From the NCBI GenBank assembly GCA_000091205.1, contig AP006502.2: a DNA stretch of 64,000 nucleotides. One strand, 5' to 3'. Made by a program: the position numbers and the translations under genes. Shown piece after piece: positions 12,761 through 41,445 of this stretch. The number at the start of each line of letters is the position of its first letter. Position 1 is the stretch's first letter. Origin of the DNA: Cyanidioschyzon merolae (lineage: Eukaryota). The notes under the pieces were generated by a model. The model made no database searches. It worked only from the letters and a program-made list of their open reading frames with translations, and had not been told where the DNA came from.

Positions 12761-12789
12761 TTTTACTGAGGATACTATATTTGTTTCAA

Positions 12790-24668: not shown

Positions 24669-26066
24669 CTAGGGAGTGCCACGTTCCATGTCCACTCGTC
24701 GAGTGGTTTTCCAGTAGGGAAGACATTCCGATGGCTTCCAAATGCAGAGCACGACAGTCCAGTATATAAAGAAGATCCGGTGCAATGAGAAGATAAGACC
24801 CAGAAGCGCTAGCCGCAGACTTGCGCAAGCTTGGCACATGAGTCCTAGGCCCCAGACGAGAAGGAACGCTAGATGAAACCAAACCGCACGGTTTCCATTG
24901 AACCAGAATGAGAGAATAAATTGCGGAAGCAAAAATATTGGTGCTAGGAGCACACAAAATTCTACGAGTTCGTCAGGGTCGTTCCACCAGAGGCAGGGCA
25001 ATGACTCCAGATAGTCCGTATAGCGACGGTAGCCGCCGTAGACCCAGCGAGCCCGCTGCTGAAAAAGTGCCTTCCAGCTAGGAGCTAGTTCCTCCATAAC
25101 GTAGGTATCATCGATGTAGTGGATCTTCAGACCCGCAATTTTGAGGCGACAAGTCATATCAACGTCATCACCCGTGGTTTGATCATTGAAGAAAAAGCCT
25201 CTGAGAGCCGACCTGCCATCAGCAACATGCAAGATGACAGCTTCGTCGAAAAACATGCCATTTCCTCGTAATGAAGCACAACCAGCCCGACGAATCTGTC
25301 TCTGAGAGGAGACGAACCAGTCAGCCATATAGTCCGCAACCTGGCAATCCTCAAGCAGGGATCTGCTACCCCATCGAATGGGCTTTTTGAGGACCTGAAG
25401 AACAAGCGCGTCTTCGCTCAAAAATACTGCCGCTAGAGCCGCGAGAAGGCGGGGATCGCACTGTGCATCCGCGTCCAAAAAGCCAATAATATGCCTCTTT
25501 TTCGGTGAAATAATCACATCTTGCTCTCGTTCATAGAAAATGTACTTGAGTGCTGCATTCAAAGCACCAGACTTGCCTCCGCCGATATCGTGCTGCGGAC
25601 GTGCAATCGCTTGGCACACAGGCAGAGGTCGCAATGTGTCCCGTATCCAATGATGAATACGGTCAAAGGAACCATCCGTCGAATGGTCATCAAGTACCAA
25701 AATCCGATAGGAATCCACTGGGTACTTAAGGCCAAAGCAGAGTTTCTGCAGAGTCTTGCAAATCACGCCGCTTTCATTTTTGCAAGGAACTACCAGAGTG
25801 AAGAACGGGAGACTTCCAGTATCAATATCAGCTTCAGGGATTTTTTTAGTTGTAACCTTTTTACGCACTAGGAACGCCAAAAGATATGCGTCTAGTAAGA
25901 TAGCCGCTATATGGTAAACTCGTGAGGCTGGTCTCCAGAGAAACGACACTACGCCCGCCCCGAGGACACACAAGGGCAAAAGCACCGATCTTGAGCGCCG
26001 GTTGCTCGTTTCCGGCAACATCGAGAGGCCCGCGCAAGGTACTCGGACAGAAGTACCGCACAGCAC
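24669..26066 (-). CDS. Family 2 glycosyltransferase, processive type (cellulose/chitin-synthase-like), multi-pass membrane
   Basis: LVVPCKNESGVI, LDDHSTDGS, the DxD motif in FLDADAQCD, and QQRARWVYG (the Q-x-x-R-W motif of processive GT2). Hydrophobic segments at both termini. Confidence 0.7.
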   Translation of the reverse strand: MLCGTSVRVPCAGLSMLPETSNRRSRSVLLPLCVLGAGVVSFLWRPASRVYHIAAILLDAYLLAFLVRKKVTTKKIPEADIDTGSLPFFTLVVPCKNESGVICKTLQKLCFGLKYPVDSYRILVLDDHSTDGSFDRIHHWIRDTLRPLPVCQAIARPQHDIGGGKSGALNAALKYIFYEREQDVIISPKKRHIIGFLDADAQCDPRLLAALAAVFLSEDALVLQVLKKPIRWGSRSLLEDCQVADYMADWFVSSQRQIRRAGCASLRGNGMFFDEAVILHVADGRSALRGFFFNDQTTGDDVDMTCRLKIAGLKIHYIDDTYVMEELAPSWKALFQQRARWVYGGYRRYTDYLESLPCLWWNDPDELVEFCVLLAPIFLLPQFILSFWFNGNRAVWFHLAFLLVWGLGLMCQACASLRLALLGLIFSLHRIFFIYWTVVLCIWKPSECLPYWKTTRRVDMERGTP

Positions 26067-26198
26067 ATATCCATTTGAGAACCTGACAGGACGTTATCAG
26101 AGCGGAACACTCCACACTAGAACGGACTGGAAACGGCACCGACGTCCACCCTTCGTCTCGCGCACGACGGAAGAACAAGAATCCGCGTTGCTCTATCC

Positions 26199-26741
26199 AT
26201 GATCGAGCTCCAGCTTGAACTGTTTCCGGGACATATCGCGGGTTTGCTGCTGGTTGAACTTTCGAAACCTGTTGAAGACTTTGCAAGCATTTTCATACAA
26301 GGAACCTGGGAGTGTGCGCTTCTTGATGCGGGTGTCGTTTTCCACAAGTCACAATTGCTGACTGCGGTTAACGTTGCGTTCCAAAGATTCGAGGCTGGAC
26401 GATTGAAGACTCACTCCCTCCACAATGAGGTGATGCTCGCTCTTTCAGCTAAGCTTAGTATAAGAGATGGACTTGCAGCTGTTCGTTTTTCATGGGAGAA
26501 AACTAGATGTTTAGTTGTTGCTGTGGACCCGCCTGCCTCGTTTCCTCAAGCGGCTGAGTCGACGTCGAACGCTCTGGCTGCAAAGGTCAGACATTTTCCG
26601 GAGGGTGCGAACGAGCTTTTCAACGAACTCCTTGTTCACGTTGATAAGCCTTCGATCCAGAATCTTTATGGAACAGATATCGATCCACACTGGATATGCA
26701 CGAAGATTGCTACCGTTGAGTATGTACGGCAGCTTCGTTGA
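26199..26741 (+). CDS. CGI121: KEOPS/EKC complex subunit Cgi121 (TPRKB)
   Basis: MIELQLELFPGHIAGLLLVEL...DAGVVFHKSQLLTAVNVAFQRFEAGRLKTHSLHNEVMLALSAKLSIRDGLAAVRFS is collinear with TPRKB (LDLFPECRVTLLLF...[56 protein letters not shown]). Confidence 0.7.
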   Translation: MIELQLELFPGHIAGLLLVELSKPVEDFASIFIQGTWECALLDAGVVFHKSQLLTAVNVAFQRFEAGRLKTHSLHNEVMLALSAKLSIRDGLAAVRFSWEKTRCLVVAVDPPASFPQAAESTSNALAAKVRHFPEGANELFNELLVHVDKPSIQNLYGTDIDPHWICTKIATVEYVRQLR

Positions 26742-27360
26742 TCGTGGCGGCATTACGCACACAGGAACGCTAGCGAACGGAATATTCAACGCGAGGGCAA
26801 CCATTTGTGGGCGCTAGGAAAGCGACTTGTACCGTCCAGAGCGCTCTGTTGTTATCATGGAATTTGTTACGAATCCATTCATGGTATCACGGTTAACCGA
26901 CGCTGGGATTGTCATTTTACTTGTCCAGAGCGTTCTGTTGTAATCATTGGGTTTCCTCTGCTGCATTCCCTATCTCATGAGCCGTCATCCAGCGCACAAC
27001 GCACAGTCTATGGGAACGTCACAAGGACTTATAAGCATGTCTTAATTGCGCGTCTGATTTGTCCTGACAAACGCCCTCCTGTTAGTTAACTAGCGCTCAT
27101 GCGGCGTTTCCTGTTTTCGCCAAAGCATCCATGCAGACGACAGCCTGAATCCTTTCGAAACAGTGTGTGATAGCCTCTTTGGACTTGCACGGAGGTCTTT
27201 TCCTCCGTGGTCGATGCAACAGAGCTTGGAAGGCCTGGGAACGTGAAGCCTCCCCTGAAAGCGTAAACGCTCTGCGAAATCGCAGTAAAACGCTTTAAGC
27301 TGGCGTCTGCCAGTTGGCGTGATTAAAAGGGCCCAACGCTTGCCATACAGCAGAAACAAC

Positions 27361-29247
27361 CTAACGCATTTGCGGTGCCTGTAGGATAGATCCATCCAAC
27401 GTGATGCCCAGTAAACGCAAAAATACGGCGATTTCTTCCCTCGAGTTTTCATCCGCAATACGTTGCTCCAAGTCTGAGAAACAGGAAGCGGTCCGTCGCC
27501 CTTGAACCGCATCAATCCCTTCAGGATGTAGCGATCCGTGCATGCTATTCAAATCGAGGCTCGGTCTCGAAAGGACCTGCTTATCCTCTCTGGTCGCCGT
27601 TGGACGTCCCGGAAAGGGTGAATTGCTCCGTTTGACTGTGTTCGTGCAATGATGCATTGAATCTGTGAATCTCGCGGACCGACTCGGAGCTGGGAGGTGC
27701 GCGTTTTTGATCGGAGCCTTTGGGATTTTCAGACGATCAAACCACCGATGCTTGAGCAACTCTTGACAAGACGGACGTTGCCTGTAATCTTGGGCTAAGC
27801 ATAAGGCAAGAAAGTTACGAGCGTTACTACTGAGGCGAATTTCCTGCGGAATTTCAGGCGATCCTTTTTCAAGCAGCGTTACGATCAAGTCAAGGTGTCC
27901 TCTGCAGCCCAAATAGTCATCATAGTTTGGATGCTTCCCTTGCAGGCACTCAAGGAGGCTGATTCCAAGACTATAAATATCCGCTCGGTAATCGTAAGGA
28001 CTCGCGCGAAGCATCTCGGGTGCCATATAAAGGCAAGTCCCGACGAATTTCCCTTCCCGAACTGGTCCGTGCACTCCGAGATCGGAATTATCTTTCTGAG
28101 GATTCTTCTGCACAGATATTGATGAAGATAGACCAAAATCTGCGAGTTTCACTTGCCCAAGACGATTCAACAGAAGGTTGGACGGCTTCACATCCCGATG
28201 CACGCGATGGCAGACGTTGTGGACGAACTGGAGTGCTCGGAGCGTCTGCCACGCAATCGCTCGTACAACTGATTCAGACAGCCGCTTCACGGACGATCGG
28301 CGGTATAAGCCGTCGATGCTTCCGACGTCCATAAGCTCCATAAGAATCATGACCCTGTTTCCGTCCTCGACGATTTCATGGTAATGAACGATGTTTTCGC
28401 AGTCGTGCGCTCGGGCCATTCTCAAGACGGATACTTCGCTTCGTATCTGAGCACGATGCGAGCTTGAATCAATGATCTTTATCGCTATCGGCTCCGATTT
28501 GTCCTTGTACATGGCAAGCTGAACAGATGCGAAGGAACCGCTTCCGATTGTACGGAGAAATTGTAGATGGTTCGCTTTCAGGCCAGAGCCAGTTCCAAAG
28601 CTATTAGATGTCGGACAATCAGATACTTGCATAACACGCGAGACACCCGATTCCATACGAGAGGATTTCATGGAAACGTCTTCCTGTTTGAGAGATTTCC
28701 AATCGGCCGCGGCCTGTCGAGTTTCATAGCTGGTTTCGCCTGCCTCTCCGGCAGATATACTACAAGCCATCACTTGTCGTTCTGCAGTCGAGTACGCGGT
28801 AGGAGCTTCATCTGCCTCTGCACAGCACTCAAAACTCGCACCGTACTCATCGTTTGGTTGGAGTGGGTCTCCAAAGTTGAGATCCGTTTCATTCAGGGTG
28901 AGCTTGCCGAGCCCGCGGCGAACGCTCAGGCTCTTGCTACGTGTTTCTAATAGATTCGATACTGCCACGACAGAATTCGAGGTTGCACTTCCGTAGTTGT
29001 CTTGAGGACGTTTTCGATTGTTCACAGCCGACGCTTGCAAACGCGTCTCGTCTGCAGCTGGTGGTGGACTTCGAGCGACCTTCCCTTTGAGGAGCCCGCT
29101 CAACCAGAGCGGGACGCGGTGGCGCCCTCGCTTCGGGGCAACTCGCCCGAGACGCGAATCAACTTGCGCATACCCTGGTGCGAACCGAGAGTGCAGTGTG
29201 CTGCCTTCTCCAGAGTGCTCCTCTGCGAACCGAAGACATCGCAACAT
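27361..29247 (-). CDS. Dual-specificity MAP kinase kinase (MEK/STE7-like) Ser/Thr protein kinase
   Basis: IGSGSFASVQLAMYK...IAIKII (G-loop and VAIK), HRDVKPSNLLLNRLGQVKLADFGLS (HRD and DFG), GTCLYMAPE. The long N-terminal extension is Ser-rich. Confidence 0.75.
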   Translation of the reverse strand: MLRCLRFAEEHSGEGSTLHSRFAPGYAQVDSRLGRVAPKRGRHRVPLWLSGLLKGKVARSPPPAADETRLQASAVNNRKRPQDNYGSATSNSVVAVSNLLETRSKSLSVRRGLGKLTLNETDLNFGDPLQPNDEYGASFECCAEADEAPTAYSTAERQVMACSISAGEAGETSYETRQAAADWKSLKQEDVSMKSSRMESGVSRVMQVSDCPTSNSFGTGSGLKANHLQFLRTIGSGSFASVQLAMYKDKSEPIAIKIIDSSSHRAQIRSEVSVLRMARAHDCENIVHYHEIVEDGNRVMILMELMDVGSIDGLYRRSSVKRLSESVVRAIAWQTLRALQFVHNVCHRVHRDVKPSNLLLNRLGQVKLADFGLSSSISVQKNPQKDNSDLGVHGPVREGKFVGTCLYMAPEMLRASPYDYRADIYSLGISLLECLQGKHPNYDDYLGCRGHLDLIVTLLEKGSPEIPQEIRLSSNARNFLALCLAQDYRQRPSCQELLKHRWFDRLKIPKAPIKNAHLPAPSRSARFTDSMHHCTNTVKRSNSPFPGRPTATREDKQVLSRPSLDLNSMHGSLHPEGIDAVQGRRTASCFSDLEQRIADENSREEIAVFLRLLGITLDGSILQAPQMR

Positions 29248-29554
29248 GCAGCAAAGCTAGTCCTTCTTTCCTAGTCGCATAGAAAACTCTGCGGCATTGA
29301 TCCTAATTTGCTAGTGCGCGTTGTACCCTCCAATACCGTGGCGGCTGCAGGCAGATGTGACTTCACACCCATATTAGACTAAACTGCAACAGGCTTTCAA
29401 ACAAAGCTGCGCAAACTAAAGTTTGATTTTGTTCCCGCTCTAATAAACACTAGCCTTTGTGGCTTGTTCTGCGATTGGGTTTGCTCCCTCTAACTTATTT
29501 CGGGCTTTGAATGCACTGGTCTATCCTTTTCCTCAAAATCCATCGTCTGCAGTT

Positions 29555-29700
29555 CGGGGATATTGATGGCAGCGTTGAGGTCCCGATTTCGCTGCTTCCC
29601 GCAATTGTCGACTCAGTCGATGCACCGGGCGGTAGATAAGTTCAGAGCTTCGCTCTCCATTTTCACCTTCTTTATGTACAGCGTGGAGCGCATATCGCAG
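29555..29700 (+). repeat. Decayed copy of the RDVDGNVTATI-type TnpB/Fanzor-like 3' end
   Basis: DNA GGGATATTGATGGCAGCGTTGAGGTCCCGATTTCGCTGCTTCC compared with GGGATGTTGATGGCAACGTTACAGCCACGATTTCGCCGCTTCC at 17505-17547. The later ...tt(c/t)atgtacag block is also shared. It translates as F-G-D-I-D-G-S-V-E-V-P-I-S-L-L-P. Confidence 0.35.
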
Positions 29701-31327
29701 AGTGACATATGGCTGCAGTCAGGTATTCAAGCATTTCCGACATACCTCATTCTTCTGCGCAAGGTACCCTACGGCGCGTGCAGGCATGGTTCATCGCTCC
29801 ATCATGCCATTGACGGGCATAGAAGATGCCCTCGGTGCTCTCTTCCGTTTCCGCGTATGGTGCCGTGCGCTACGAGCATGGGGGATCCTCCCTGTGAGAA
29901 CTCTGTTCTCTGGATACGCAAGCGCGCACTGTTCCATAAGATAGAGGATTCATGGAACACAATATCGTACATGATGGAACGCGTACTCGAAGGAATATCC
30001 GGGCTGGATATCACTCTGCGAAATTTCGATACGACTAAGCTACCCTCGTGCAAAATGTCACGTACTGCCCACTGCAAGCGGTCGCCGCGTGGACTGACGT
30101 CCAAGTCCGAGACCTTTTTCCATGTAAACAAAAGAGACGAGAAAAGCAACGAGCAGATATTGAGTGCCATTTCTTCGATACCGAAGAAGAGAGGAGGACG
30201 TATTTTCGAATCGAATGGTTTCTTTGATGTGGCAAGTTTAGTGGACTTTTGGAATGAGCTTGCGAAAAAAGTCGTCTAGGGACAGCGTCGAGTGTTTTAC
30301 GTCTTCATTCTAATGGTGCGAGTTGCTGCGCCCCGGGTCGGCTCGAAGCACAGAGGTCCAAAACGTGAGGAATATGTGAATTGAGCATGATAAGTGTGAG
30401 AAAAGGAGAGAGGCGGAGGTTTGTACCCATGAACTAGATGATGATGACGGCTATTCTACGAACCTGAATTCGACGGTATCGCGAAGGATCTTAATTACGG
30501 TGACATCCCGGTTTCCAGCAGCAAGGAGCGGATAGAGCTACTCCGAAACGACGACCGGGAATCCAAATACTCCGAATCAATCCATAAGCCCCTACTGCGG
30601 GACCTGGAGTTCCGAAGCCGCACATCCATAAATGGTCGAAAACATCGCAAGTCAGGAACAGAGCGGGCAGTTCAACTTTTCATTTTAATCTGACAGGGGC
30701 TAGGCCAGTCTCTGGATGAATCACAAATAGCAAGGAGACATCCTAGCAAGAGGAGAGCATCATTTGCAGAAAGTTCTGCGAAGATATTAAGGCGCGCATG
30801 CAGAAGTCCCCAGATATCCGGAACGTACACGAGCACCAGTTCGTCCACGAAGCGTTCATGACGAATCCTGGTCAGTTTGGAATATGCAAAGAAATATTCT
30901 AGCACACGCCAATCACTCAATGCGTTTTGCACCCAATTCAGCCTCTGGAACTCACGCCCTCGTTGGACACCCCACAGACATTCTGTCTCCATGCGACATC
31001 CGCAGATGCGTCAGCAACGACTCAGCGAGCGTCCGCAGTAGGCTCAATGCCACCTGCATCGCTGGATCTTTCAAGTTGCCGTTGTTTAGGACCAATGAGC
31101 CGGCCTCCAAGGCTGCGTGAATCGCGAGCACAGGGGAACAGTCCCTATGAGTTTCCGCGCAAACCGCAGTCGGTGTACGAGCGTACTTGAAGATGATTAC
31201 CATTCATGAGAAGACCCTCATGCAACGCTCCTCTGTGGCGACAGTAGACATGACAGCTCCTCGCATGACTGCATCAGAACCGGGTATATTCTTTGGCAGC
31301 GCCTTACCCTAGTATGTACCCAGGTCT

Positions 31328-32191
31328 TCAAATCCGTGCATTCGGACCAAGTGTTTTCTTGGGCAGCGCCTTACCCTCGTACGCATCCAGGTAAGAGCTA
31401 TCCGATAATTTTCGCTCCACATCGTAGCTCATTCTTCTGAGAACTTGAGGCGTCATTTGCAAAGGCTCAAACTGGAAAATTTCCGGGGGCGGTCTCGTGG
31501 AGGGTGGTCGCCTGCGCCGATTCTCGAGCCCTGTACCAGAACGCGTCGGCAACTCGCCCTCCGCTGAAGCAGACTTGTCGGGCGGTATAGCTGCGGACTG
31601 CTCCACGGCAGCTACCCAGTTCCAGTCAAGACTTTTCAATTCTTGCAGAGAAAACTCTAGTCGGCCCTGCTTCCCAACAATTTGGACGTTCGGAAGTGGC
31701 TCCGCCTCTGGCCTTTGGTCCCGCCTCAGGACCCGCAGCACAACGTCAGGCCTTCGATGAGCAGCTATTGTCCTTGCCTTTATTTTTTCTCTCAGAGGCT
31801 CTGGGAGCGTCTTCCCCCGATTCCAAGGCACACGCTCTCTGCTGTTTTTAGGTGGCGGCGGCTTCTTCTCTGCCTTCCGCTTCTGCGACGTGCGCTTCAC
31901 CGGAGCCTTCGCAGAGTCCTTTGCACGCGAAGCGTCTTGGATTTTACCGCTCCCCGGTGCGCGCTTCTTGCGGGTACGGCGCTCTTGTTTTGGTTCGCAG
32001 TCTGATGAACAGCTTACAAGCGGCTTGCGGAAAAAAAGGTGCCCGCGGAACGTCCTCGTAAGTATCGCCCACATGCGCAATGAAAAGATTTCATATACTA
32101 GCTGCGGGTAAATTCGTCTGAGGTTGTGCACGCGCATTCGGCGCCGTACGCCGATATATACTTCTGACTGCGCTTCAAAGGCGTGCGACAT
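31328..32191 (-). CDS. Hypothetical Lys/Arg-rich protein
   Basis: 287-aa ORF with long basic tracts (KKRAPGSGK...KRKAEKKPPPPK). No recognisable domain. Divergent from NAC-alpha. Confidence 0.3.
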   Translation of the reverse strand: MSHAFEAQSEVYIGVRRRMRVHNLRRIYPQLVYEIFSLRMWAILTRTFRGHLFFRKPLVSCSSDCEPKQERRTRKKRAPGSGKIQDASRAKDSAKAPVKRTSQKRKAEKKPPPPKNSRERVPWNRGKTLPEPLREKIKARTIAAHRRPDVVLRVLRRDQRPEAEPLPNVQIVGKQGRLEFSLQELKSLDWNWVAAVEQSAAIPPDKSASAEGELPTRSGTGLENRRRRPPSTRPPPEIFQFEPLQMTPQVLRRMSYDVERKLSDSSYLDAYEGKALPKKTLGPNARI

Positions 32192-32906
32192 GACTGAGGA
32201 ACTGCCTCGACAAACAGAACCTCTTACTGAAGAAGAGACGGATCAGGAAAGTGCGTCCGAATTAAAACAAGAAGATATCGCCGAGGCAGCGAGAGAAAGT
32301 GGCATTGATCCGAAAGAGCTTGCACAGCAAGCGGCGCTCCTTCAGGCGCATGAGCACGCCGTCGGCGCGGCTGGCGCAGGGGCTGGCCTCCCCGCTCGCC
32401 AGTCTCGAGCTGAGAAGAAGACGAGAAAAGCCCTCTCAAAACTTGGACTGAAAAAGGTACCGGGTGTAACGCGGATTGCAGTGAAAAAAGAAGGGACTTT
32501 ACTTTTTGTTGTTTCGCAACCCGATGTGTACAAGAGCTCGGCGTCTGACACGTACGTTTTCTTCGGAGAAGCCAAAATTGGTGAGAGTATTGGTGATGCC
32601 GGTGCACAGGCCGAGGCAAGGCGCTTCCTAGACTACAGCGCTGACTCTGATCAGTTTGGCCTCGAGGGCAAACTGCGCGACTATCTTGGCGGCGAGAGAG
32701 CGGGAGCCGACGGGGCTCCCGGCACACGCTCAGGTCCCAGCGGCGACGTGTCAGAACAGGAAGAGGAAGTTGATGAGACAGGGCTCGACCCTAAGGACAT
32801 TGAGCTCGTTGTCCAGCAGGCGGATGTTTCCCGAGCACGTGCAGCACGAGCGTTACGCAATAACAATGGTGATATTGTGAATGCTATACTTGAGTTGACG
32901 GTATAA
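32190..32906 (+). CDS. NACA: Nascent polypeptide-associated complex subunit alpha (NAC-alpha) with C-terminal UBA domain
   Basis: NAC domain KKVPGVTRIAVKKEGTLLFVVSQPDVYKSSASDTYVFFGEAKIGE. C-terminal UBA-like LVVQQADVSRARAARALRNNNGDIVNAILELT. Acidic N-terminus. Start taken at the second Met (32190). Confidence 0.8.
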   Translation: MTEELPRQTEPLTEEETDQESASELKQEDIAEAARESGIDPKELAQQAALLQAHEHAVGAAGAGAGLPARQSRAEKKTRKALSKLGLKKVPGVTRIAVKKEGTLLFVVSQPDVYKSSASDTYVFFGEAKIGESIGDAGAQAEARRFLDYSADSDQFGLEGKLRDYLGGERAGADGAPGTRSGPSGDVSEQEEEVDETGLDPKDIELVVQQADVSRARAARALRNNNGDIVNAILELTV

Positions 32907-33111
32907 AGAAAGAATTTGATGACGCCTTACGGGGTATGCTTTGAGATCGGGGCTGTTCTGCTGGACCACACGATCCTGGAGCCGATGCGTTTCATGCTCA
33001 CCGAGAAATCTGAGAGCGCATCACGGGAAGGAACCGAAGGCGCTCACGTCACTCAATGCGTGACGTTCTGACTTTGCATCACCGGATCCAGACACTTTCT
33101 TCAAGCCTTTT

Positions 33112-34371
33112 TTAACCCAATCCGTCGTGATTGCGAGCTCCGTAGAGTTCACGCAACAGATAATATGCAAAGTTGCTCGAGAAGCTCCCAATATCCGTGA
33201 CAAAAATTGAGACTTGCGAACTCGGCACGATCGCATAGCGCGGATTACTTACTCCGACTCTGGATTGGAACGGGCTAATGCTTTCATATGGCAACAGAGT
33301 GCTGGGCACAAAAGATTTTTCGATAGCGGAAATATCATGAGGGAACCGCTCAGAAATCCTGTGCAACTCCGTCAGAACTAGGACAGGAACAGCGTGCGCA
33401 CGCGCTGCATCCGCAGCAAGGCGACACGTTGGGCGCGTGATCACGGAACCCTCCGCAAGGACTACTTCGGCGCGGATGATCAGCTTGTGCACCCGAGCCA
33501 TAATTGCATATACTGCAGCGTCCGTAATCAACGTCGTATCAATACCGCGCCCAGCAAGCTCGCTTGCTAGCCTGTGACCACTGCACTCTGGCGCAGCTTC
33601 AGATACGAAGACCTTGAAACGGCGTTTTTTCCCAGCTTCTAATAGGAAATGCATAATTAAAGGCGAATACCCGCAGGTCAAAACCACCTCTTCCGAATGT
33701 ATATGCTCGCTGCTTTGCTGTGCTATCTGACTGTCAGCGCTCTCGAGCTCGTTCAGAAGTTCGACAACCGTTTCTTCTTGTCGAAATTCTTCCACGGTAC
33801 AGCTTTCTAGAAGCCGTCGACTGGAGTCGTTCCTCTCCTGGAAGATATTTGAGCTGTCGCTGGGACCCCTGCTGCCGAGTACCGAGACAGCCACGAAGGT
33901 CTCGAGTTCAGCGCCTGCAGTGGAGCTCGCGAATCCTTGAACACGTCGTTGTCTGAGAAGTAGTAGCCGCTTCAAAACATTTTCCAGTACGTACTGGCAA
34001 AGAATGTTCGAGAATAGTTTCTGATCATTCAAGAGTTTTGTGAGATCACGCAAAAAAGCCTCTAGGCTCCTCGTTGCACAGTACTGGAGCAGTACACGGA
34101 GCGCGCTTGCTAGTTGGTTACCGAACGGAACGGTATTCGTCTTTGACTTCTTTCCAGATTCGTTCTTCGGTTGCGTTTCTTCAGCAACAGCACGACGAGC
34201 GCTTGCACGGCAGTTGGAAGTGGGATACGTTACGGGCTTCAAAAAAACCGACGTGAAAAACTCCGCTCCGTAAAGACTCTCATACGCTTCATCTAAACTC
34301 TTTAGCAGCTTCAACGCAATTTCCTCGAAGCGTTGATCTTCGGAATCAGCCTCTGCTGAACTTGAAGCCAT
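33112..34371 (-). CDS. Translation initiation factor eIF2B subunit (beta/delta family; IF-2B fold)
   Basis: C-terminal Rossmann-like block EVVLTCGYSPLIMHFLLEAGKKRRFKVFVSEAAPECSGHRLASELAGRGIDTTLITDAAVYAIMARVHKLIIRAEVVLAEGSVI...AHAVPVLVLTELHRIS is typical of eIF2B alpha/beta/delta and MtnA. The 419-aa length fits beta/delta. Confidence 0.6.
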   Translation of the reverse strand: MASSSAEADSEDQRFEEIALKLLKSLDEAYESLYGAEFFTSVFLKPVTYPTSNCRASARRAVAEETQPKNESGKKSKTNTVPFGNQLASALRVLLQYCATRSLEAFLRDLTKLLNDQKLFSNILCQYVLENVLKRLLLLRQRRVQGFASSTAGAELETFVAVSVLGSRGPSDSSNIFQERNDSSRRLLESCTVEEFRQEETVVELLNELESADSQIAQQSSEHIHSEEVVLTCGYSPLIMHFLLEAGKKRRFKVFVSEAAPECSGHRLASELAGRGIDTTLITDAAVYAIMARVHKLIIRAEVVLAEGSVITRPTCRLAADAARAHAVPVLVLTELHRISERFPHDISAIEKSFVPSTLLPYESISPFQSRVGVSNPRYAIVPSSQVSIFVTDIGSFSSNFAYYLLRELYGARNHDGLG

Positions 34372-34555
34372 CGCTCAGTGAAACCCAGTATCTCAACTAT
34401 GCCAGCCGCGTCTTGTTCTCTGCTGGAATGGGACGGATCCGAGCTTGCGCGGCATCAATAGCAACGTGACAGTATGTCCCTGGACCACGGAGGATGGAAT
34501 CGCACCGTCATGCGCCTCATCATTCTTTATAGCCTTTAAGCTCAGTTGTGTTCGA

Positions 34556-35307
34556 CCCTTGGATGAGTATAATGAAATGGTATTTCGCTGGTTATAGAAG
34601 ATGCGTTCGAAGAGTGCTAATTTTCAAAACTAAAAAATCGAGGGGAAAGGTAAGGACACGGAAGTCGGGGATCCTGGAGTCCCAGTATCGCCAGGTGCCG
34701 GAAAAGAAACAAAAAATCTTCTTCTCGTCGACAATGGATCCAAGAAGAGCAAGTGACAATGAAGAAGAGGAGGGTAGATAGGCGAGAAAAGGTGCTTGCG
34801 CGGTGGGGCCACGGCGAGATTGTAGTGGCGCCGATGGGTCGTCTTCTAAGAATCAATGCAAAGGTGACTTCAATCAGCTGTAGAGCATTCAAGGAGTTTG
34901 TGAACCGCGACTTCAACACCACCATCAATGTCAGATGGAGCGTGATGCGGAAGTCTCGGTTCATGGACTCCATGATTGGTTGCCTCTGGTTGAAATCATC
35001 AATTCAAGGATTACTAGAACTCGTCTCATCGGCGCCCCTACAATCTCGCCGTGGCCCCACCGCGCAAGCACCTTTTCTCGCCTATCTACCCTCCTCTTCT
35101 TCATTGTCACTTGCTCTTCTTGGATCCATTGTCGACGAGAAGAAGATTTTTTGTTTCTTTTCCGGCACCTGGCGATACTGGGACTCCAGGATCCCCGACT
35201 TCCGTGTCCTTACCTTTCCCCTCGATTTTTTAGTTTTGAAAATTAGCACTCTTCGAACGCATCTTCTATAACCAGCGAAATACCATTTCATTATACTCAT
35301 CCAAGGG
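34556..35307. repeat. Foldback palindrome built from a TnpB/Fanzor-like 3' fragment
   Basis: ORF 34548-34781(+) = 35082-35318(-), 34630-34812(-) = 35051-35233(+), and the C-terminus of 34617-34973(-) = the C-terminus of 34935-35246(+). The arms (34556-34842 and 35021-35307) encode G-I-L-E-S-Q...F-S-S-T-M-D-P-R-R-A-S-D-N-E-E-E-E-G, homologous to the 48858-48990 copy. The 178-bp spacer (34843-35020) encodes A-F-K-E-F-V-N-R-D-F-N-T-T-I-N-V-R. Confidence 0.6.
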
Positions 35308-35488
35308 TGGAACACCACTGAGGTGAGAGACTATAATCTAACTCTCAGTTACCGTGATTGCTCTCATGCCACAAATGGATAGACCTGGAGAAGCCCGTAC
35401 TACAGTTGGACGGCGCACGAATCTACCAACTCAGCACCCGCGCTGTTCCGATTTGTGCTGACGAATTGGGCGGGAAAGATGAAACAGT

Positions 35489-36094
35489 TTGAGAAAGGAC
35501 GTTCTAGCTCAAATGCCGCAGTGGAGCGCAGAAAACGCTGCGGTTGTTAATAGGGATTCTCTAAATAAGGATGAAGAGTGCAATACGTCTAACGCAAACT
35601 GCTCAGAGCGAGTGAAGAGAACAAAGAAAGCCATTGTGAAACCTCGTCTACCAGTCCGGTGTGCGCTGCTTCAAAGCCCTCCGCGAAAGCGATACAAAAA
35701 TGTTTCAACGCTTTCTTCGATTCAAGTGGCTGGCGCTCTAGGAGCTCCGAGAGTTCCACAAGAAACTCCACTAAAAACGCAACATAGATGTTACAGACTG
35801 AAGCTCGACGCTAAGGATAAAGGCACTCGCCGGCAGAGTCACGGCGATGGCGACGGCTTTAGCCCCGAAAGCTCAGATATCAGGCGCAATGTCCTGCACA
35901 AACCACTCCAACTTTCGAGTGGTCTTGAATGTGACGGCATCAATAGGCAGCGGAGTTCCCCGCCGGACCCTGTGTCCAACACAACCGAGCTCTTGGAACG
36001 GCCAAGTGATGGAGACGTGGTTTGTACTGTTCCTCGTGAGGTTCTGATTCTTTGCAATGAAAAGGACGAATTTTTCCAAGCAATATTCAGATGA
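35489..36094 (+). CDS. Hypothetical protein
   Basis: 201-aa ORF in a gene-sized gap. No recognisable motif. Confidence 0.2.
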   Translation: MRKDVLAQMPQWSAENAAVVNRDSLNKDEECNTSNANCSERVKRTKKAIVKPRLPVRCALLQSPPRKRYKNVSTLSSIQVAGALGAPRVPQETPLKTQHRCYRLKLDAKDKGTRRQSHGDGDGFSPESSDIRRNVLHKPLQLSSGLECDGINRQRSSPPDPVSNTTELLERPSDGDVVCTVPREVLILCNEKDEFFQAIFR

Positions 36095-37852
36095 CTTTGT
36101 TTTTCCCGTCGCCGCTATCTGGAAAGAGTCACTCAGGGCAACCTCTTGCTGGCGGCGGCCCGATTTTTGCGTCACATGATGGGCAACTAGCGAGCCGGTC
36201 AAGAGTTGAATCACAGCAACGATTGCCTGTTATTTAATGAGTGGTACATATAGCCTCAACTGCTTGGTATAACCTTTCCATTGTTTCGGAGAATCAGGTT
36301 CGTTCAACGCAGGCTCGGTTCCGGATAATTTCACAGATCAGAATCGAGCAGATAGCATCATGAATTTTCTTCCACAAAATGACTGGCATTAGGATCATTA
36401 TAACCGACGCAAAACATAAACTCCGTTAATCCTATCTCAAAATCGTAGCAGTGAGTTCCGGAAACCTTGGCTTGAGTACCATTGTTCTGAATGTGCTTTT
36501 TCTCATGGATATGAAACAAACTAAGACGTCCTGTAAATTAGAGAAATGTAGCGGCAAGCCTCTATTCTCTGACTTGTCGCTCACGAGAAAAAATACCTTT
36601 CATGTGTCATTCAGTCATTACTACGTTCAGCAGCTGGATGAATCGCCTTTCTTGCAGCGCTTGTCCTGAACTTCGTGCATCCAAAACAGAATGTCTGAAT
36701 GTTTCTCTATGCGACCGTTTCTCCATGTATCTATTCCACCACAAGCGTTCTCGAGGTGATATCTTCACAAACGTTGCAGGATGTCAGCCTTCGGTAGCAC
36801 TGATACAAGCGATGATGAAGAGGCATGCGTGGGCAAAAATAGAAGAGCCCTGCTATTGGAAACACTCGCAAGTTGTACAAAACATTATTGATTTCGAACT
36901 GAAACGCAAACGGCTTTTGCAGAAAAGTCTGGTGCTCGCCTCACTGGATTAGACATCATCCGGGAAAAACGGTAAACCTATATAAGGAAAATGATAGAGG
37001 GGCGAACAACTGTTCGAAAAGAAGGCAAAAGCGAGCATTAAGAGAAAATCAGCCCCAGCAGAAATGCAATCGTGTTATTGCCCTCTAATCAGCAATCGAA
37101 CTGGATCGTTGGATACCTCACCCAGCGTGGTAACACTCTTCATGATCTGCTCTTCGCACCCTCTTCTGTCATTCTCCGAGACAACTTCGCCGTACATCTT
37201 TGAAAAGCGAGAGGAGAGAACGATACTCAGATTGGCACTGAGCTACTCTTCGTGCCAGGATATACCCCTGGTTCAATGCAGGAGAGGCGTATATTTAAGT
37301 GCCAGACGCGGTCTTAACGGACATGGATCCATGGAAGAATCATTAGCATCCATGTCTTTGTTCGTTGAGAAATCGTTCTCTGCCATCGCAAGCCTTAAAC
37401 TGATATGTTCCTTTTCCTACCGTGTGCGGGAGGGAGCGGAGTGGCGCTTCGGATTGTAACACGTGCTCGCTACGAAGGAAGTGACCAAAATGTACTCGAG
37501 AAATAAAAAGTACATATCCAGGAAAAGTGACCTTCGCACTGATCATCCCCGAAATGCGTCCGATCCGCGAGGAATAGACCTGGTATGGAGTATAGCAATA
37601 GCATGGAAATCGCCATACCCAGCAAGGGGAAAATACGAGGAAAGAGAAGGGGATGCATCAACCAGACAAAGTAGAGAATTGTACCCCGAAACAAGCACAA
37701 ATAACGACAGGACAAAAACTATAGAAGTGGAAAGATCAGTCCAAAATCGCTGCAAAGGCATAAACACTAATATACATGAACAGGAAGAGAATTCCAGAAA
37801 CTGAAATTCGGAGCACCAGTAAGGATCATATAACTTCGTTTTCGAGGAGGGC

Positions 37853-39179
37853 TCTCATAGCTTTTCTCTTACCGTGGCACAGCTCGTCATGCAAATGCTC
37901 GTGCAAGTTCCGGATGCGCATTGCGAGCTGCCCTCATTCCACACGGATTTTTGGACAAATCCTTCGTTCTTCTACCAGCGTTCGCGACAGAACGTGAAAC
38001 ACGGCCTGATCGCAGTATACAAGATCTGCACGCACGCTTGCGAGAAAACATTTGTACGTCATGAAATCACATCAGCAATCGGAATATCCATGACGAAAGA
38101 GAAAAATATCGAATCAACCTGAAAAATGAAACGATACGCGAGACAATCTCGAGTGCTTCAATCGGTTCACCGTTTGGAAGTTAGAACCGTTTTAACCTAC
38201 CTTACTGGCCTAAAAAAGTGGTGACTGATAGAACGGTTTCTTGGAGTGCCGAAGGAGGCAAATGACAAGCTGATGGTGACAGATGGGATCGAGGTGCCAA
38301 CGACGCCGGAAGCGATATCGCACCGAGAGCGAGACTCGCGTCAGATCGCCCGCGCCTATCGAGTGGATCTCGGACTCGGATCGCCACACGTCCTATCCAT
38401 ACGATGGCGTCAACGGGATACCTGCCTTGCTTGCGATTCGCGCACCACTATATTCGCGTCGAGAGAGCCCTCGAGAGGATCGGCACAAGTCTTATCCATA
38501 CGATGGTGTCAACGGGATACCTGCCTTGCTTGCATTCCGCGCCCCATTATATTCGCCTCAAAAGAGCCCTCGAGAGGATCGGCACAAGTCTTATCCATAC
38601 CATGGCGTTAACGGGGTACCTGCCTTGCTTGCATCTCTCGCCCCATTATATTTGCCTCAAGGGAGCCCTCGAGAGCGAAGCAGACTCCGTCCACCAATGC
38701 GGGTGCACTCGACTCCGTAAGCGTCTGTTCGAAGCGGCCCTCATTCGTCACTTCAACGCCCACTTATCACTGCAGACTCCTCTGTACTATACGTTCCACT
38801 CAGTGGGCTACGGCCGGTCTCTGGCAGCGAGCACGGGTCACTCGAACAGCTTTCCGAAGATCATGGGTAGAGCTGATTCGACGTTTCGCCTTACAGGGCA
38901 GGAAATCGTAAGGAGTACGCAGGGAGAATGGAGACCGACGGAAGACCAGGCTGCATGCACTTTGTGAAACTTAAACTTGACTCAACTAACGATGCTGATT
39001 TTCAACCGTCCAAGATAAATGAAGAGAAACACATCGCGCGGTTGCCTTATCTCAAAATCAAGAGAGCGGAATGAAAGAGTTGAACAGAATCCAGATGATA
39101 GTGTGCAAATTTTCGAGGGCTTTATACTAGAGTGAAGCATGATGGGCGTCAGGAGGCACACGAACGTTTGGAATGACGG
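37853..39179. repeat. Inverted repeat B, right arm
   Basis: Reverse complement of 19838-21152. Includes the 99-bp tandem array at 38365-38674. Confidence 0.9.
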
Positions 39180-41445
39180 CGTCAGGGCCCAAATCAATGC
39201 CTTTAGCACCGCATCGAAGAGACTAATGCTTTGCACGGTTATTCAGAGAGTCCATCAGCGTCCAACAGGCGCATGCGGACGATCCTTGGAAGGTGCACAT
39301 GAGACAGCGCTAGCGTGATCATCAGTACCGATTATAGGGAAGCATGAAACACGCATTAACCAACTTTTTAAATGAATTCGAAAAGCAAGTATCTGGTAAG
39401 TCGCGTCGTTTGGTGGAAACCTACGAAGTTGTACAAGCTATAGAACGCAAAAACTGTACTTGCTCTCCTTCGACGAGGGCGTACAACGAGTGCAAGATTC
39501 GATTCTGAAAGATTCACTCCGATGCATTCAGAAAGACATACAGTCTTCACGAGCACGGGTGCGCGTTGAATCTGGTAGACACGAAAAAGAGAAACTGAGA
39601 CGGATGCGCTTGCCGATGTACAGCAAGCTGAACGATCCTCAGATCGATAGAAAATCGAGCGTGAGAGGTTTTCTACGGTTTGAATCCACTCGCAACCATG
39701 CGCACAAGCAGTTTCCGAACGGAGACTCGAATGCTTCGATCAACATCCGGCGACCTTGTGCTTCCGGAGCGTCCAGTGGCCTTTTGCAGAAGGGTCCTGC
39801 ATTGGTATCCCCTAGTACTCATTGTGGGCATTGGGATGAGACGCGGAAGACTTGCGGTTAAACAAAATTCGATGGCCTGGACACATGGGATTCGATTCTC
39901 CCACTGAGCGAGGCAAATGTATGGCGCAGTTCAGCAGTATGGAATGGCAGGTGCGTAGAATATACAGAACGCAAGAGATATCCTTGCGCAATCGGTGAAC
40001 GATAACTATGCTGGATTATTCGATATTGCTGATTATACTGAACGCCTCGCTTGATGTGGCAGGAACTTTACAATTTTGGAAACGCACTCGGGCTTTCGTA
40101 TGCTGCGCTTTGCTTGGATCCAAAAATTGTAAGCACTGATAAATGAGACTGCTCTCTCGAGGTGCGTCGATCAAATGCGCATCTACGAGCATGCTCCAGG
40201 TATCTCCTCTCGCCCCGGAACGGCACAGCTCTGATTTTTAGCAGCGCGATTTACGTGGAGATCAGGTTTTGTTTCCGGGCTCGTAGTGCTCTGCGAAATG
40301 TCCTCTTACGTAAGGTTTTAAATGCTATTCAGAGGGAGCAGCTTCCATGAGAAGCGATGCGCGTAGACTCTCATGGACATGTTCGTAGCCTTTTTTAATG
40401 ACGCAGAATCCCATTGGACGAGATCCATTGGGAAGAGAGAGTCCACTAGCTCATTTCGTGGACCAAAACGAGCTTTCTTTTTGATAAATGCAGACAGAGC
40501 TGCATAGCGTACGTTGTGCGAGGCGCTGCCCTGTTTTTGAGCCACTGGGTGAGGCATCGGTGCTTCATTTACGCTTTTATCGCAAAGACATCAACAAACG
40601 ATATTTCACACAACTTTTGATTCAGTCCACATCAGGAGAAGACGACCAGTTTGCTCATTCGCGCATTTCGATGACTGGCCAACTTCAGCGGCTGGCGTCC
40701 ACACGCGACCACCGACCGTTTCACTGGCAGGTTTTCTACAATGAGACCATCCCTTGGAGAGGACAACACCCGTCGGACTTCAGCGTAAGGGCGTTTGCTC
40801 TGTAAGCCATTCGCACCTTGCCCCATGCTCACTGCAAGGAGCAACGTCCCAACCTAATATGCAGTGTATCAATTTTCATTTGACCAGCACTTTGCGTACC
40901 CGTGCATTAAACCTTCCAAACGTCCTTTTGAAATTGTAGTTTTGATACAGAGAGCAAGACTCGCGAACACGCGAAAGCTGTATATAAAAAATTGTACCGA
41001 GTAACGCTATCCGTGGTGCATCAAATTTCCAATTTTTCCAGAAACATTTCCCTGCAAAACGCATATTGTCGGTGAGAGGGTGATAAATCTCACCAGAGTC
41101 CCTCGGACACGAGAATACTGCTGTTATCCCCTTGGAAAGGGTTTCAAACTACCCTAGCAAGGTCAGCTTTCCATCTGGTCCACATCAGTTCTGCTATCGG
41201 GCGTGGCAGCACGGTCAGTCTAATAACTGCAGAGATTCCCGAACTACATTCTTCTGTCATCTGCTTCCCTTGTATCGGATTTATATATGGACTGGAATCA
41301 AGTGCCCCAATGATCACTCGATCGAACTCGCCCATGCCGACCGCATCAAGGCGCTGTGTTTGCGCGCCCTGGGGGCCTGCATTTGGTAGAAGCGCGGCAC
41401 CTTGAAAACTCAGCTTCGCGCGTTTTTGCTCAAGGCTTTCGACTG

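What the first reader, a model, noticed from the sequence alone, without database searches (positions are those of the whole stretch)
34556..35307. Foldback palindrome made from a Fanzor-like 3' fragment, RuvC-III codons in the loop
The element 5' part (GIL...FSST...RASDNEEEEG region) is present twice in inverted orientation as 287-bp arms. The RuvC-III-encoding piece (A-F-K-E-F-V-N-R-D-F-N-T-T-I-N-V) sits in the 178-bp spacer. The downstream half of the fragment has been replaced by an inverted copy of the upstream half. This is a hairpin or cruciform-capable structure typical of template switching or foldback formation. It could also be a source of hairpin RNA or siRNA against the family.
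Basis: seen in the sequence. Interest (0 to 1): 0.5.

Follow-up and report, generated by a model that had tools for sequence, protein, structure and literature searches.

The report
Old transposon-fragment palindrome kept identical by conversion
An 810-bp palindrome in a red-alga chromosome is two tail-to-tail copies of a decayed short Fanzor-transposon derivative whose outer arms are kept identical by copying between arms; it is real but is an ordinary kind of genome relic, and it is very unlikely to be an siRNA source because the host lacks RNA interference.

Summary
The inverted repeat is real. Window 34527-35336 is symmetric about ~34931.5, with 271 bp of perfect complementarity (34555-34825 / 35038-35308). 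It is colinear in independently assembled metagenome contigs, so it is not a chimeric assembly. The window is Cyanidioschyzon merolae 10D. Each arm is a copy of a short, internally deleted derivative of the Fanzor1 transposon family CMe-1A. Both arms start at that derivative's 5' terminus and both lack its last ~185 bp. It is the diverged inner part of both arms (70.8% identical) around a 33-nt loop, and the RuvC-III codons (NRDF) occur on both strands. The junction is exactly what snap-back priming at a 5-nt inverted microhomology in the family would give. Inner arms carry mostly private changes, whereas outer arms are identical yet 20% from the family consensus. Strain differences are mirrored in both arms, and one haplotype carries a 10-site conversion tract. 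Together these indicate an old palindrome homogenised by arm-to-arm gene conversion. The host lacks Dicer and Argonaute, so the siRNA idea is unsupported. Interest is low to moderate: it is a new example of a known kind.

The parts
34527..34842 (+). Left arm: a copy of the short, internally deleted CMe-1A derivative, starting at its 5' terminus (TTATAG...).
   Evidence: 34528-34716 is homologous to positions ~132-320 of long elements. The remainder runs into the Fanzor C-terminal remnant.
34555..34825 (.). Zone of perfect arm identity on the left; its mirror is 35038-35308.
   Evidence: 271/271 positions are complementary. The arms are nevertheless 44/219 (20%) diverged from the short-family consensus.
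34826..34914 (+). Left inner arm, diverged. It holds the RuvC-III-like codons AFKEFVNRDF (34885-34914).
   Evidence: 70.8% identical to the right inner arm. The family HMM matches 34855-34950, i-Evalue 4.5e-6.
34916..34948 (+). Asymmetric 33-nt loop, retained in the orientation of the left copy.
   Evidence: It has the same length as the family segment between CTTCA and TGAAG. It is 72.7% identical to that segment in + orientation and 57.6% in reverse complement.
34949..34964 (.). Junction: GGAAG (family TGAAG microhomology) followed by TCTCGGTTCAT, the reverse complement of ATGAACCGAGA.
   Evidence: The snap-back product predicted from the family consensus is ...TGAAGTCTCGGTTCA. The observed sequence is ...GGAAGTCTCGGTTCA.
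34950..35037 (-). Right inner arm, diverged. It codes M-N-R-D-F on the minus strand at 34964-34950.
   Evidence: The HMM match is weak: 34973-34899, i-Evalue 0.068. In haplotype L002, ten sites at 34999-35026 are converted to the complement of the left arm.
35021..35336 (-). Right arm: an inverted copy of the same short derivative, ending at its 5' terminus (CTATAA on the + strand).
34753..35271 (+). Spurious 172-aa ORF running from the left inner arm through the loop and antisense into the right arm.
   Evidence: It appears in the ORF listing and was called as a gene in metagenome contigs L001 and L003. It has no Pfam match.
48727..49317 (+). Non-palindromic reference copy of the same short derivative, with its 3' end intact.
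   Evidence: It is 68.7% identical to the arms over 34582-34935 and has the same 5' boundary.
33112..34371 (-). Flanking gene: eIF2B-family subunit. Its ATG lies 156 bp from the left end of the palindrome.
   Evidence: Pfam IF-2B, E = 3e-41.

Best explanation
The locus is a decayed, non-functional relic in the intergenic region upstream of an eIF2B-subunit gene on the 1.62-Mb chromosome of Cyanidioschyzon merolae 10D. It consists of two tail-to-tail copies of a ~577-bp internally deleted, non-autonomous derivative of the Fanzor1 transposon CMe-1A. Each copy keeps the derivative's 5' terminus and both are cut off at the same point, ~11 codons after the RuvC-III NRD motif. Most likely origin (inferred): a strand ending in ...TGAAG folded back on the CTTCA 33 nt upstream and was extended along its own upstream sequence to the element's 5' end. 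That gives a palindromic dimer with a 33-nt loop. Later history (supported by data): this happened long ago. The ~90 bp next to the loop then diverged freely. The outer ~270-290 bp have been kept identical by repeated gene conversion between the arms, and the boundary of the identical zone moves between strains. The structure can form a very stable hairpin or cruciform, but nothing indicates that it is used, and the host has no RNAi machinery to process a hairpin transcript.
For: Organism: window ORF 7462-9084 is identical to C. merolae 10D XP_005539272.1 on a 1,621,617-bp contig. Family: the arms are 68-70% identical to ~10 short copies that share the same internal deletion. That derivative equals long-element positions ~132-320 plus ~2187-2540. 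Family ORFs carry GxDPGxTN, DEFRTS and NRDxNAAxNI. A predicted structure of one (pLDDT 68) has solved Fanzor structures as its best matches (SpuFz E = 2.5e-8, TM 0.50), then TnpB and Cas12. Bao & Jurka describe CMe-1A as Fanzor1 with ~150 copies (PMC3627910). Termini: all short copies and both arms lose homology upstream of [GT]TATAG. The family 3' terminus ...ACTG(T)A is absent from both arms. Junction and loop fit the snap-back prediction. Age and homogenisation: in the outer arms all 44 differences from the family consensus (of 219 sites) are shared by both arms. In the inner arms only 5 are shared, against 12 left-private, 9 right-private and 3 three-way. Conversion: all 5 SNPs between 10D and contigs L001-L003 within the identical zone (34559, 34617, 34682, 34760, 34788) have the complementary change at the mirror position. 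Changes at 35309 and 35316 restore pairing. L002 has 10 extra changes at 34999-35026, all making the right arm complementary to the left. A third haplotype (L004/L005) carries 34554C, complementary to the G at 35309 in the 10D right arm; its own right arm is not in the contigs. The arms' SNP density (1.6-2.5%) resembles that of the flanking non-coding DNA, 0.65% (1/155) on the left and 2.3% (4/176) on the right, 1.5% combined, so sequence is unconstrained and only arm identity is kept.
Against: Short-read assemblers may collapse the identical zone of the two arms into one unitig. If so, the five mirrored SNPs in the metagenome contigs are partly identical by construction. The L002 tract and the boundary changes lie outside that zone and are not affected. 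The snap-back origin cannot be separated from two insertions followed by a symmetric central deletion. The inner arms are almost as far from each other as from the family consensus, which either scenario predicts. The L002 tract is patchy: site 35020 is not converted. No orthologous locus from an intermediate lineage was found to show the ancestral state. Transcription and any regulatory effect on the neighbouring genes were not testable.
Confidence: 0.6

Rival explanations
1. Two independent insertions of the short element landed tail-to-tail. A symmetric central deletion (hairpin or cruciform tip cleavage and microhomology-mediated rejoining) then removed both 3' ends, and gene conversion homogenised the outer arms afterwards.
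For: The inner arms share only 5 derived sites against 24 private ones, as expected for separate insertions from one master copy. The family often sits in inverted pairs (L052, L072, L021, and window 19718-21159 / 37843-39284). The centre of the head-to-head dimer L061/L079/L091 is structurally polymorphic by a 75-bp segment. A microhomology junction fits end joining as well as it fits snap-back.
Against: The loop is exactly the 33-nt family spacing between CTTCA and TGAAG and keeps one orientation. Both truncations map to the same family position within 1 nt. That is automatic for snap-back but needs a precisely symmetric deletion here.
Confidence: 0.22
2. The palindrome is a functional hairpin: a source of hairpin RNA or siRNA against the Fanzor family, or a structured RNA or DNA cruciform that regulates the divergent eIF2B / ORF 35513 promoters. 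Arm complementarity would then be kept by selection (compensatory changes).
For: All five strain differences in the arms preserve pairing. The predicted hairpin is extremely stable. The palindrome lies 156 bp from the eIF2B ATG.
Against: C. merolae lacks Argonaute and Dicer (PMC11376382). A block of 10 changes arriving together in L002 is a conversion tract, not stepwise compensation. No G-U or unpaired intermediates are seen. Arm sequence evolves at the neutral intergenic rate. There is no Rfam match. The arms are only 68-70% identical to other family copies, which makes a poor siRNA trigger.
Confidence: 0.05
3. The whole 810-bp palindrome is a mobile foldback- or MITE-like element that transposes as a unit, using its two inverted 5' ends as terminal inverted repeats.
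For: Both outer boundaries coincide with the short element's 5' terminus, so the unit has TIR-like ends.
Against: About 1.1 Mb of Cyanidioschyzon-like contigs (family loci L007-L096) and the rest of the window hold no second copy of this unit. All other short copies are single. No target-site duplication is visible at the flanks. The parent family has no TIRs (PMC3627910).
Confidence: 0.05
4. The structure is an assembly artefact, such as a chimeric foldback clone or read.
For: Palindromes are a classic cloning and assembly artefact, and three metagenome contigs (L004-L006) break inside it.
Against: The reference is a finished Sanger/BAC telomere-to-telomere assembly (PMC1955436). Three metagenome assemblies with their own SNPs span it colinearly without gaps. 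The arms' inner parts are 29% diverged and the arms are 20% from the family consensus, which no read-level artefact would produce.
Confidence: 0.02

Closest known systems
CMe-1A, the Fanzor1 transposon family of Cyanidioschyzon merolae (Bao & Jurka 2013, PMC3627910)
   Same: The arms are DNA homologues of this family (5' region plus the C-terminal RuvC-III region). The family is old (~80% to consensus), abundant and lacks TIRs, as described there.
   Different: This is not a Fanzor gene. It has stops and frameshifts and no RuvC-I. It belongs to a short internally deleted derivative (~577 bp) that differs from the described TE-N2_CMe, which is the 5' 635 bp only. It is present as an inverted dimer.
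Large sex-chromosome palindromes with arm-to-arm gene conversion (human Y P1-P8, X palindromes; PMC8600007, bioRxiv 10.1101/800185)
   Same: It has inverted arms with near-100% identity around a non-identical spacer. Arm identity is far higher than the divergence between lineages. Changes are shared by both arms, meaning concerted evolution.
   Different: It is 10-1000 times smaller (0.8 kb against 9 kb-1.45 Mb). It carries no genes, is made of a dead transposon, sits in a haploid unicellular alga, and its identical zone is shrinking from the centre.
Palindrome formation by intrastrand annealing at a short inverted repeat next to a break (Tetrahymena rDNA, yeast and mammalian fold-back inversions; from my own knowledge, not read here)
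   Same: A 5-nt inverted microhomology is separated by a short loop exactly at the centre, and the junction sequence equals the predicted fold-back product.
   Different: The duplication stops at the transposon's 5' terminus on both sides instead of running on into chromosomal DNA. This suggests fold-back on a free element copy or a second switch. The process was not observed, only inferred.
Foldback transposons and MITEs
   Same: It is a short non-coding unit with long terminal inverted repeats derived from a transposon.
   Different: It is a single copy with no target-site duplication and no subrepeat structure in the arms. The parent element has no TIRs.
Hairpin-RNA (endo-siRNA) loci of animals and plants (from my own knowledge)
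   Same: It is an inverted duplication of transposon sequence able to give a long dsRNA if transcribed.
   Different: The host has no Dicer or Argonaute, and expression was not tested.
Inverted-repeat boundary shifts by gene conversion in plastid genomes (from my own knowledge)
   Same: The border between the identical and non-identical parts of the repeat differs between close relatives through short conversion tracts (L002, L004).
   Different: This is a nuclear locus that is tiny, non-coding and presumably neutral.

Membership tests
Fanzor1 / TnpB-derived sequence (CMe-1A family) | Nucleotide homology to bona fide family copies | tested here: met
   blastn gives 68-70% identity over 250-357 nt to the window copy at 48775-49126 and to L082, L095, L053, L042, L021 and L024. 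The 5' region matches long elements in more than 30 loci.
Fanzor1 / TnpB-derived sequence (CMe-1A family) | The family proteins have the RuvC fold of Fanzor/TnpB with the D-E-D motifs | tested here: met
   P0018 and P0021 carry GxDPGxTN, DEFRTS and NRDxNAAxNI. The AlphaFold model (pLDDT 68, pTM 0.63) has SpuFz, PpFz and GtFz as best PDB matches (E = 2.5e-8 to 1.6e-6), then TnpB 8H1J. Sequence-only tests were weak: Pfam Cas12f1-like_TNB at E ~0.003 in distant members only, and no PDB sequence hit.
Fanzor1 / TnpB-derived sequence (CMe-1A family) | RuvC-III motif recognisable in the palindrome itself | tested here: met
   The family HMM matches + strand 34855-34950 (HMM 249-282, i-Evalue 4.5e-6). 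The minus-strand copy 34973-34899 matches only weakly, at 0.068.
Fanzor1 / TnpB-derived sequence (CMe-1A family) | Intact nuclease ORF (RuvC-I, -II and -III in one frame) and a 3' end that could encode the omega RNA | tested here: not met
   There are stops and frame changes. RuvC-I is absent because of the internal deletion. The last ~185 bp of the element are missing from both arms.
Palindrome maintained by arm-to-arm gene conversion | Arm-arm identity far exceeds what the age of the duplication allows | tested here: met
   The outer arms show 0/271 differences yet are 20% from the family consensus. The inner arms are 29% apart, with mostly private changes.
Palindrome maintained by arm-to-arm gene conversion | Differences between lineages are present in both arms, and conversion tracts are visible | tested here: met
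   5/5 SNPs are mirrored. Changes at 35309 and 35316 restore pairing. L002 carries a tract of 10 sites. Caveat: the identical zone may be collapsed in short-read contigs.
Palindrome maintained by arm-to-arm gene conversion | Both arms verified on single molecules | not testable with these tools
   No read-level data are available.
Foldback transposon / MITE | Multiple genomic copies of the same palindromic unit, flanked by target-site duplications | tested here: not met
   No second copy was found in the window or in ~1.1 Mb of related contigs (L007-L096), and no target-site duplication is visible at the flanks. The whole 10D genome was not searchable.
Hairpin-RNA / siRNA locus | Host encodes Dicer and Argonaute | tested here: not met
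   The literature says C. merolae lacks both (PMC11376382). I did not re-scan the proteome.
Hairpin-RNA / siRNA locus | Transcription through both arms and 21-24-nt small RNAs | not testable with these tools
   No expression data are available. There is no Rfam family match.
Assembly artefact | Structure absent from independent assemblies | tested here: not met
   L001-L003 span the palindrome colinearly at 99.7% with no gaps, and L004 reaches the centre.

The most novel reading that the evidence does not exclude
Palindromic dimers bounded by element termini and truncated symmetrically inside may be a recurrent by-product of how this TIR-less, unclassified Fanzor1 transposon moves. Examples are the tail-to-tail dimer here and a head-to-head dimer of the long element in L061/L079/L091, whose outer ends are the 3' termini and whose centre is CTTCGCC-cc-GGCGAAG. 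On this reading, transposition goes through a single-stranded or linear DNA intermediate that can snap back and self-prime, as in the ssDNA-based IS200/IS605 relatives of TnpB. The dimer then persists for a very long time through mitotic arm-to-arm gene conversion in a haploid alga. It may also locally raise the mutation rate: the 1.7 kb around it differ 11-fold more between strains than the neighbouring 13 kb.
Probability: 0.15. Interest if true: 0.55.

Novelty: new member of a known kind. Interest (0 to 1): 0.3.

Why it matters
It matters modestly. It gives a small, clean, sequence-level example of concerted evolution of a palindrome in a minimal eukaryotic genome that has efficient homologous recombination and no RNAi. 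The 'frozen' diverged centre shows how long palindromes can stabilise themselves. It also documents a short non-autonomous derivative of the C. merolae Fanzor1 transposon. It hints, weakly, that this unclassified transposon can form snap-back dimers, which would bear on its unknown transposition mechanism. For annotation, the 172-aa ORF across the loop is spurious.

Tried and rejected
1. Pfam scans of the fragment ORFs gave nothing. I went through longer family members instead.
2. A metagenome-wide DNA pattern for two inverted NRD-coding motifs found 0 loci. L001 and L003 carry a SNP in the pattern, and L002's sample is apparently not in that collection.
3. A search for eIF2B orthologues from intermediate lineages, to see the ancestral state of the site, found only the >=99% cluster and relatives at 51% and 46% identity. 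This was a dead end.
4. A PDB sequence search with the family profile gave no meaningful hit. A fold search was needed.
5. The Rfam scan gave only chance-level matches.
6. I briefly thought the left and right inner arms came from two family sub-lineages, 'type A' like 48727-49317 and 'type B' like 11674-12718. I dropped this after aligning eight short copies, which showed no clean dichotomy.
7. I first took L079/L089, L091/L093 and L061 for separate palindromic loci. Alignment shows they are alleles of one locus.
8. I first mis-stated a 4-nt offset between the arms. The correct value is a single 1-nt indel.

Full report
OBSERVATION. The inverted repeat is there. The repeat finder gives one pair, 34527-34877 / 34986-35336, with 351-nt arms that are 94% complementary. 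The uninterrupted perfect run is 34555-34825 <-> 35038-35308, 271 bp. As single-stranded DNA the 810 nt fold into one hairpin of -429.9 kcal/mol, against -102 +/- 5 for shuffles (z = -63). The quoted peptides are in the stated places: the ORF 34548-34781 ends ...GILESQYRQVPEKKQKIFFSSTMDPRRASDNEEEEGR, and AFKEFVNRDFNTTINV is at 34885-34932.

One correction is needed: the '178-bp spacer' is not unique sequence. Aligning the left half with the reverse complement of the right half shows that both arms continue inward through a second NRDF, coded on the minus strand at 34961-34950. The inner arms 34826-34914 and 35037-34950 are 70.8% identical with one 1-nt indel. Only 34916-34948 (33 nt) is asymmetric.

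WHERE WE ARE. Neighbouring ORFs are eukaryotic and intron-poor: TopoVI-B, RHD3-type GTPase, eIF2B, ValRS, protein kinase and Myb. The ORF 7462-9084 is identical to XP_005539272.1 of Cyanidioschyzon merolae 10D on a contig of 1,621,617 bp. That genome is a finished Sanger/BAC telomere-to-telomere sequence (PMC1955436). The palindrome lies between two divergent ORFs. It is 156 bp from the ATG of an eIF2B-family gene (33112-34371, minus strand) and ~175 bp from ORF 35513-36094.

NOT AN ARTEFACT. Looking up the eIF2B protein returned metagenome contigs carrying the same locus. L001-L003 are 16,993-bp contigs from three samples, each with its own SNPs. They are colinear with the window from 23112 to 37998 at 99.7% without gaps, straight through the palindrome. 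L004 runs through the left arm to 34881. L005 and L006 stop inside the left arm, as short-read assemblies tend to do at inverted repeats.

WHAT THE ARMS ARE MADE OF. The window holds other related pieces at 2-181, 11674-12718, 19191-19961 (minus strand), 39041-39759, 48727-49317 and 50553-51083. A conceptual translation of 11967-12718 found 73 homologues, all from metagenomes. The longer ones carry GxDPGxTN, DEFRTS and NRDxNAAxNI. Sequence-only tests were weak: Pfam Cas12f1-like_TNB at E ~0.003 in distant members only, and no PDB sequence hit. A structure predicted from a 33-sequence alignment (pLDDT 68, pTM 0.63) has solved Fanzor structures as its best matches. SpuFz scores E = 2.5e-8 with TM 0.50, PpFz and GtFz follow, and then come TnpB and Cas12. 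Bao & Jurka (PMC3627910) describe this C. merolae family as the Fanzor1 element CMe-1A. It has ~150 copies at ~80% identity to the consensus, is ~3 kb long, has no TIRs and is of unknown class. So 'Fanzor-like' is correct for the family.

Only part of each arm is Fanzor coding remnant, however. A family HMM matches 34855-34950 (i-Evalue 4.5e-6) and, weakly, the minus-strand mirror. The outer 34528-34716 is instead homologous to the 5' non-coding region of long elements, ~1.25 kb upstream of their ORF (L007, L008 and more than 30 other loci). The arms, the copy at 48727-49317 and at least eight copies in metagenome loci (L082, L095/L084, L053, L042 twice, L021, L024/L020) share one structure. 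It equals long-element positions ~132-320 joined to ~2187-2540, that is, a ~577-bp internally deleted non-autonomous derivative. All short copies, and both arms independently, lose homology to the family upstream of the same [GT]TATAG. Long elements continue ~135-150 bp further. The family's 3' terminus (...CTACTGTA in long copies...TTTTACTGA in short ones) is present in the other copies but missing from both arms. Both arms stop ~185 bp short of it.

ORIGIN (INFERRED). In the short-family consensus the RuvC-III codons ...GACTTCAAC are followed, 33 nt later, by ...GCTGAAGAC. This gives a 5-nt inverted microhomology, CTTCA/TGAAG. A 3' end at ...TGAAG folding back on CTTCA and being extended would give ...TGAAG|TCTCGGTTCA.... 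The window reads ...GGAAG|TCTCGGTTCA... at 34949-34963. The loop is exactly 33 nt, and it matches the family segment better in + orientation (72.7%) than reversed (57.6%). Because the duplication ends at the element's own 5' terminus on both sides, one of two things happened. Either the fold-back took place on a free copy of the element, or two elements inserted tail-to-tail and later lost a symmetric central piece. I cannot separate these two, and I prefer snap-back because the loop length and the truncation points fit it without further assumptions.

AGE AND MAINTENANCE. I compared the arms with the consensus of eight short copies. In the outer zone, 44 of 219 sites are derived and all 44 are shared by the two arms. 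In the inner zone (84 comparable sites) only 5 derived states are shared, against 12 private to the left arm, 9 private to the right arm and 3 three-way differences. So the two halves separated early, about as long ago as the element itself is old. Yet the outer 271 bp show no difference at all.

That step from 0% to 29% divergence needs homogenisation, and the strain comparison shows it at work. All five differences between 10D and L001-L003 inside the identical zone (34559, 34617, 34682, 34760, 34788) are accompanied by the complementary change at the mirror site (35304, 35246, 35181, 35103, 35075). Changes at 35309 and 35316 turn two arm mismatches of 10D into pairs. L002 alone has ten further changes within 34999-35026. 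Every one of them makes the right arm complementary to the left, which moves the border of the identical zone ~25-40 bp inward. That tract is patchy, since site 35020 is untouched. A third haplotype (L004/L005) has 34554C, which is complementary to the G at 35309 in the 10D right arm. This suggests that conversion can also run from right to left, although the right arm of that haplotype is not in these contigs.

One caveat applies. In short-read contigs the identical zone may be a collapsed unitig used twice, so the five mirrored SNPs are not fully independent evidence. The L002 tract and the border changes lie in non-identical sequence and could not arise that way.

Arm sequence itself is not conserved. 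The arms differ between strains by 1.6-2.5%, similar to the flanking non-coding DNA (0.65% on the left, 2.3% on the right, 1.5% combined). Only identity between the arms is maintained.

FUNCTION. Nothing points to one. There is no Rfam family match. No intact ORF exists, and the 172-aa ORF 34753-35271 is an accident of the palindrome. The proposed hairpin-RNA/siRNA role conflicts with the reported absence of Argonaute and Dicer in C. merolae (PMC11376382). The arms are also only 68-70% identical to other family copies. A block conversion of ten sites argues for DNA-level conversion rather than selection for RNA pairing. An effect on the divergent promoters cannot be excluded and was not testable.

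OTHER FOLDBACKS. I fetched 80 family loci from metagenomes; together with the ten loci fetched earlier for two family proteins (L007-L016) they make ~1.1 Mb with many redundant alleles. None of the ~10 short copies is palindromic. One other palindromic dimer exists. In L061 2469-4489 (alleles L079/L089 and L091/L093), two long-element 3' portions lie head-to-head. Their arms are 73% identical, the outer ends coincide with the elements' 3' termini, the centre is CTTCGCC-cc-GGCGAAG, and a 75-bp tandem duplication at the centre is polymorphic. Inverted neighbours with spacers are also common (L052, L072, L021, and window 19718-21159 / 37843-39284). So symmetric inverted dimers recur in this family, but rarely, and this particular geometry is unique in the sample. 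The complete 10D genome could not be searched here.

COMPARISON AND VERDICT. The locus behaves like the sex-chromosome palindromes that are homogenised by arm-to-arm gene conversion (PMC8600007; bioRxiv 10.1101/800185). It is far smaller and made of dead transposon sequence. Its origin resembles short-inverted-repeat-primed palindrome formation. It is not a Fanzor gene, not a foldback transposon or MITE (single copy, no target-site duplication), not an hpRNA locus and not an artefact. It is a new example of known processes. Interest is low to moderate (0.3). The most novel reading still open is that snap-back dimers report on a single-stranded transposition intermediate of this unclassified Fanzor1 element; I give that about 15%.

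Noticed in passing
window 34372-36094 compared with 23112-34371 and 36095-37998: Between 10D and metagenome strain L001, 27 of 45 SNPs fall in the 1.7 kb around the palindrome. That is 1.57% against 0.14% elsewhere (binomial p ~1e-14). The region includes ORF 35513-36094, which has 7 SNPs and no Pfam match. Possible causes are palindrome-associated mutagenesis, relaxed constraint or an old haplotype.
   Followed up: partly
window 12790-14137 and 17319-18665: A 1,348-bp inverted repeat at 99.5% identity flanks a 3.2-kb segment that holds a radical-SAM ORF (16064-17107). It starts ~20 bp after the 3' end of the long Fanzor pseudogene at 11674-12769. It belongs to another repeat family that is ~65% similar to 62390-63086 and to L008 17694-18658.
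   Followed up: partly
window 19718-21159 and 37843-39284: A 1,446-bp inverted repeat at 95.9% identity has Fanzor-like remnants adjoining and partly overlapping its arms (19191-19961 minus strand, 39041-39759 plus strand). It also contains 99-bp tandem repeats (20330-20627, 38378-38675). It brackets a 16.7-kb gene-bearing segment that contains the palindrome and could mediate inversion of that segment.
   Followed up: no
window 49360-50216 and 53492-54348: An 857-bp direct repeat at 99.5% identity, 4.1 kb apart, starts just downstream of the short element at 48727-49317.
   Followed up: no
window 48727-49317; L082 8305-8655; L095 8723-9074; L053 3743-4024; L042 9099-9363 and 14514-14752; L021 12781-12499; L024 8793-8463: These are copies of a discrete ~577-bp internally deleted derivative of CMe-1A (5' region joined to the Fanzor C-terminal codons and 3' end) with its own 5' boundary at [GT]TATAG. 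It differs from the TE-N2_CMe described in the literature, which is the 5' 635 bp only.
   Followed up: yes
L061 2469-4489 (alleles L079 11-1219, L091 13-1233, L093, L089): This is a head-to-head palindromic dimer of two long-element 3' portions. The arms are 73% identical, the outer ends are the 3' termini, and the centre is CTTCGCC-cc-GGCGAAG. A 75-bp segment at the centre is duplicated in tandem in two haplotypes and single in the third.
   Followed up: yes
window 11674-12718: This is a nearly full-length pseudogene of the 358-aa Fanzor ORF type (62% identical to P0021, with frameshifts near 12245 and 12505). Together with the pieces at 2-181, 39041-39759 and 50553-51083, it gives seven family remnants in 64 kb. 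That is far denser than the genome average implied by ~150 copies in 16.5 Mb.
   Followed up: partly
L007 7980-8603 compared with L008 7857-7230: A ~630-bp repeat lies immediately upstream of the 5' end of two different long elements, in opposite orientations (69% identity). It may be another transposon that associates with CMe-1A ends.
   Followed up: no
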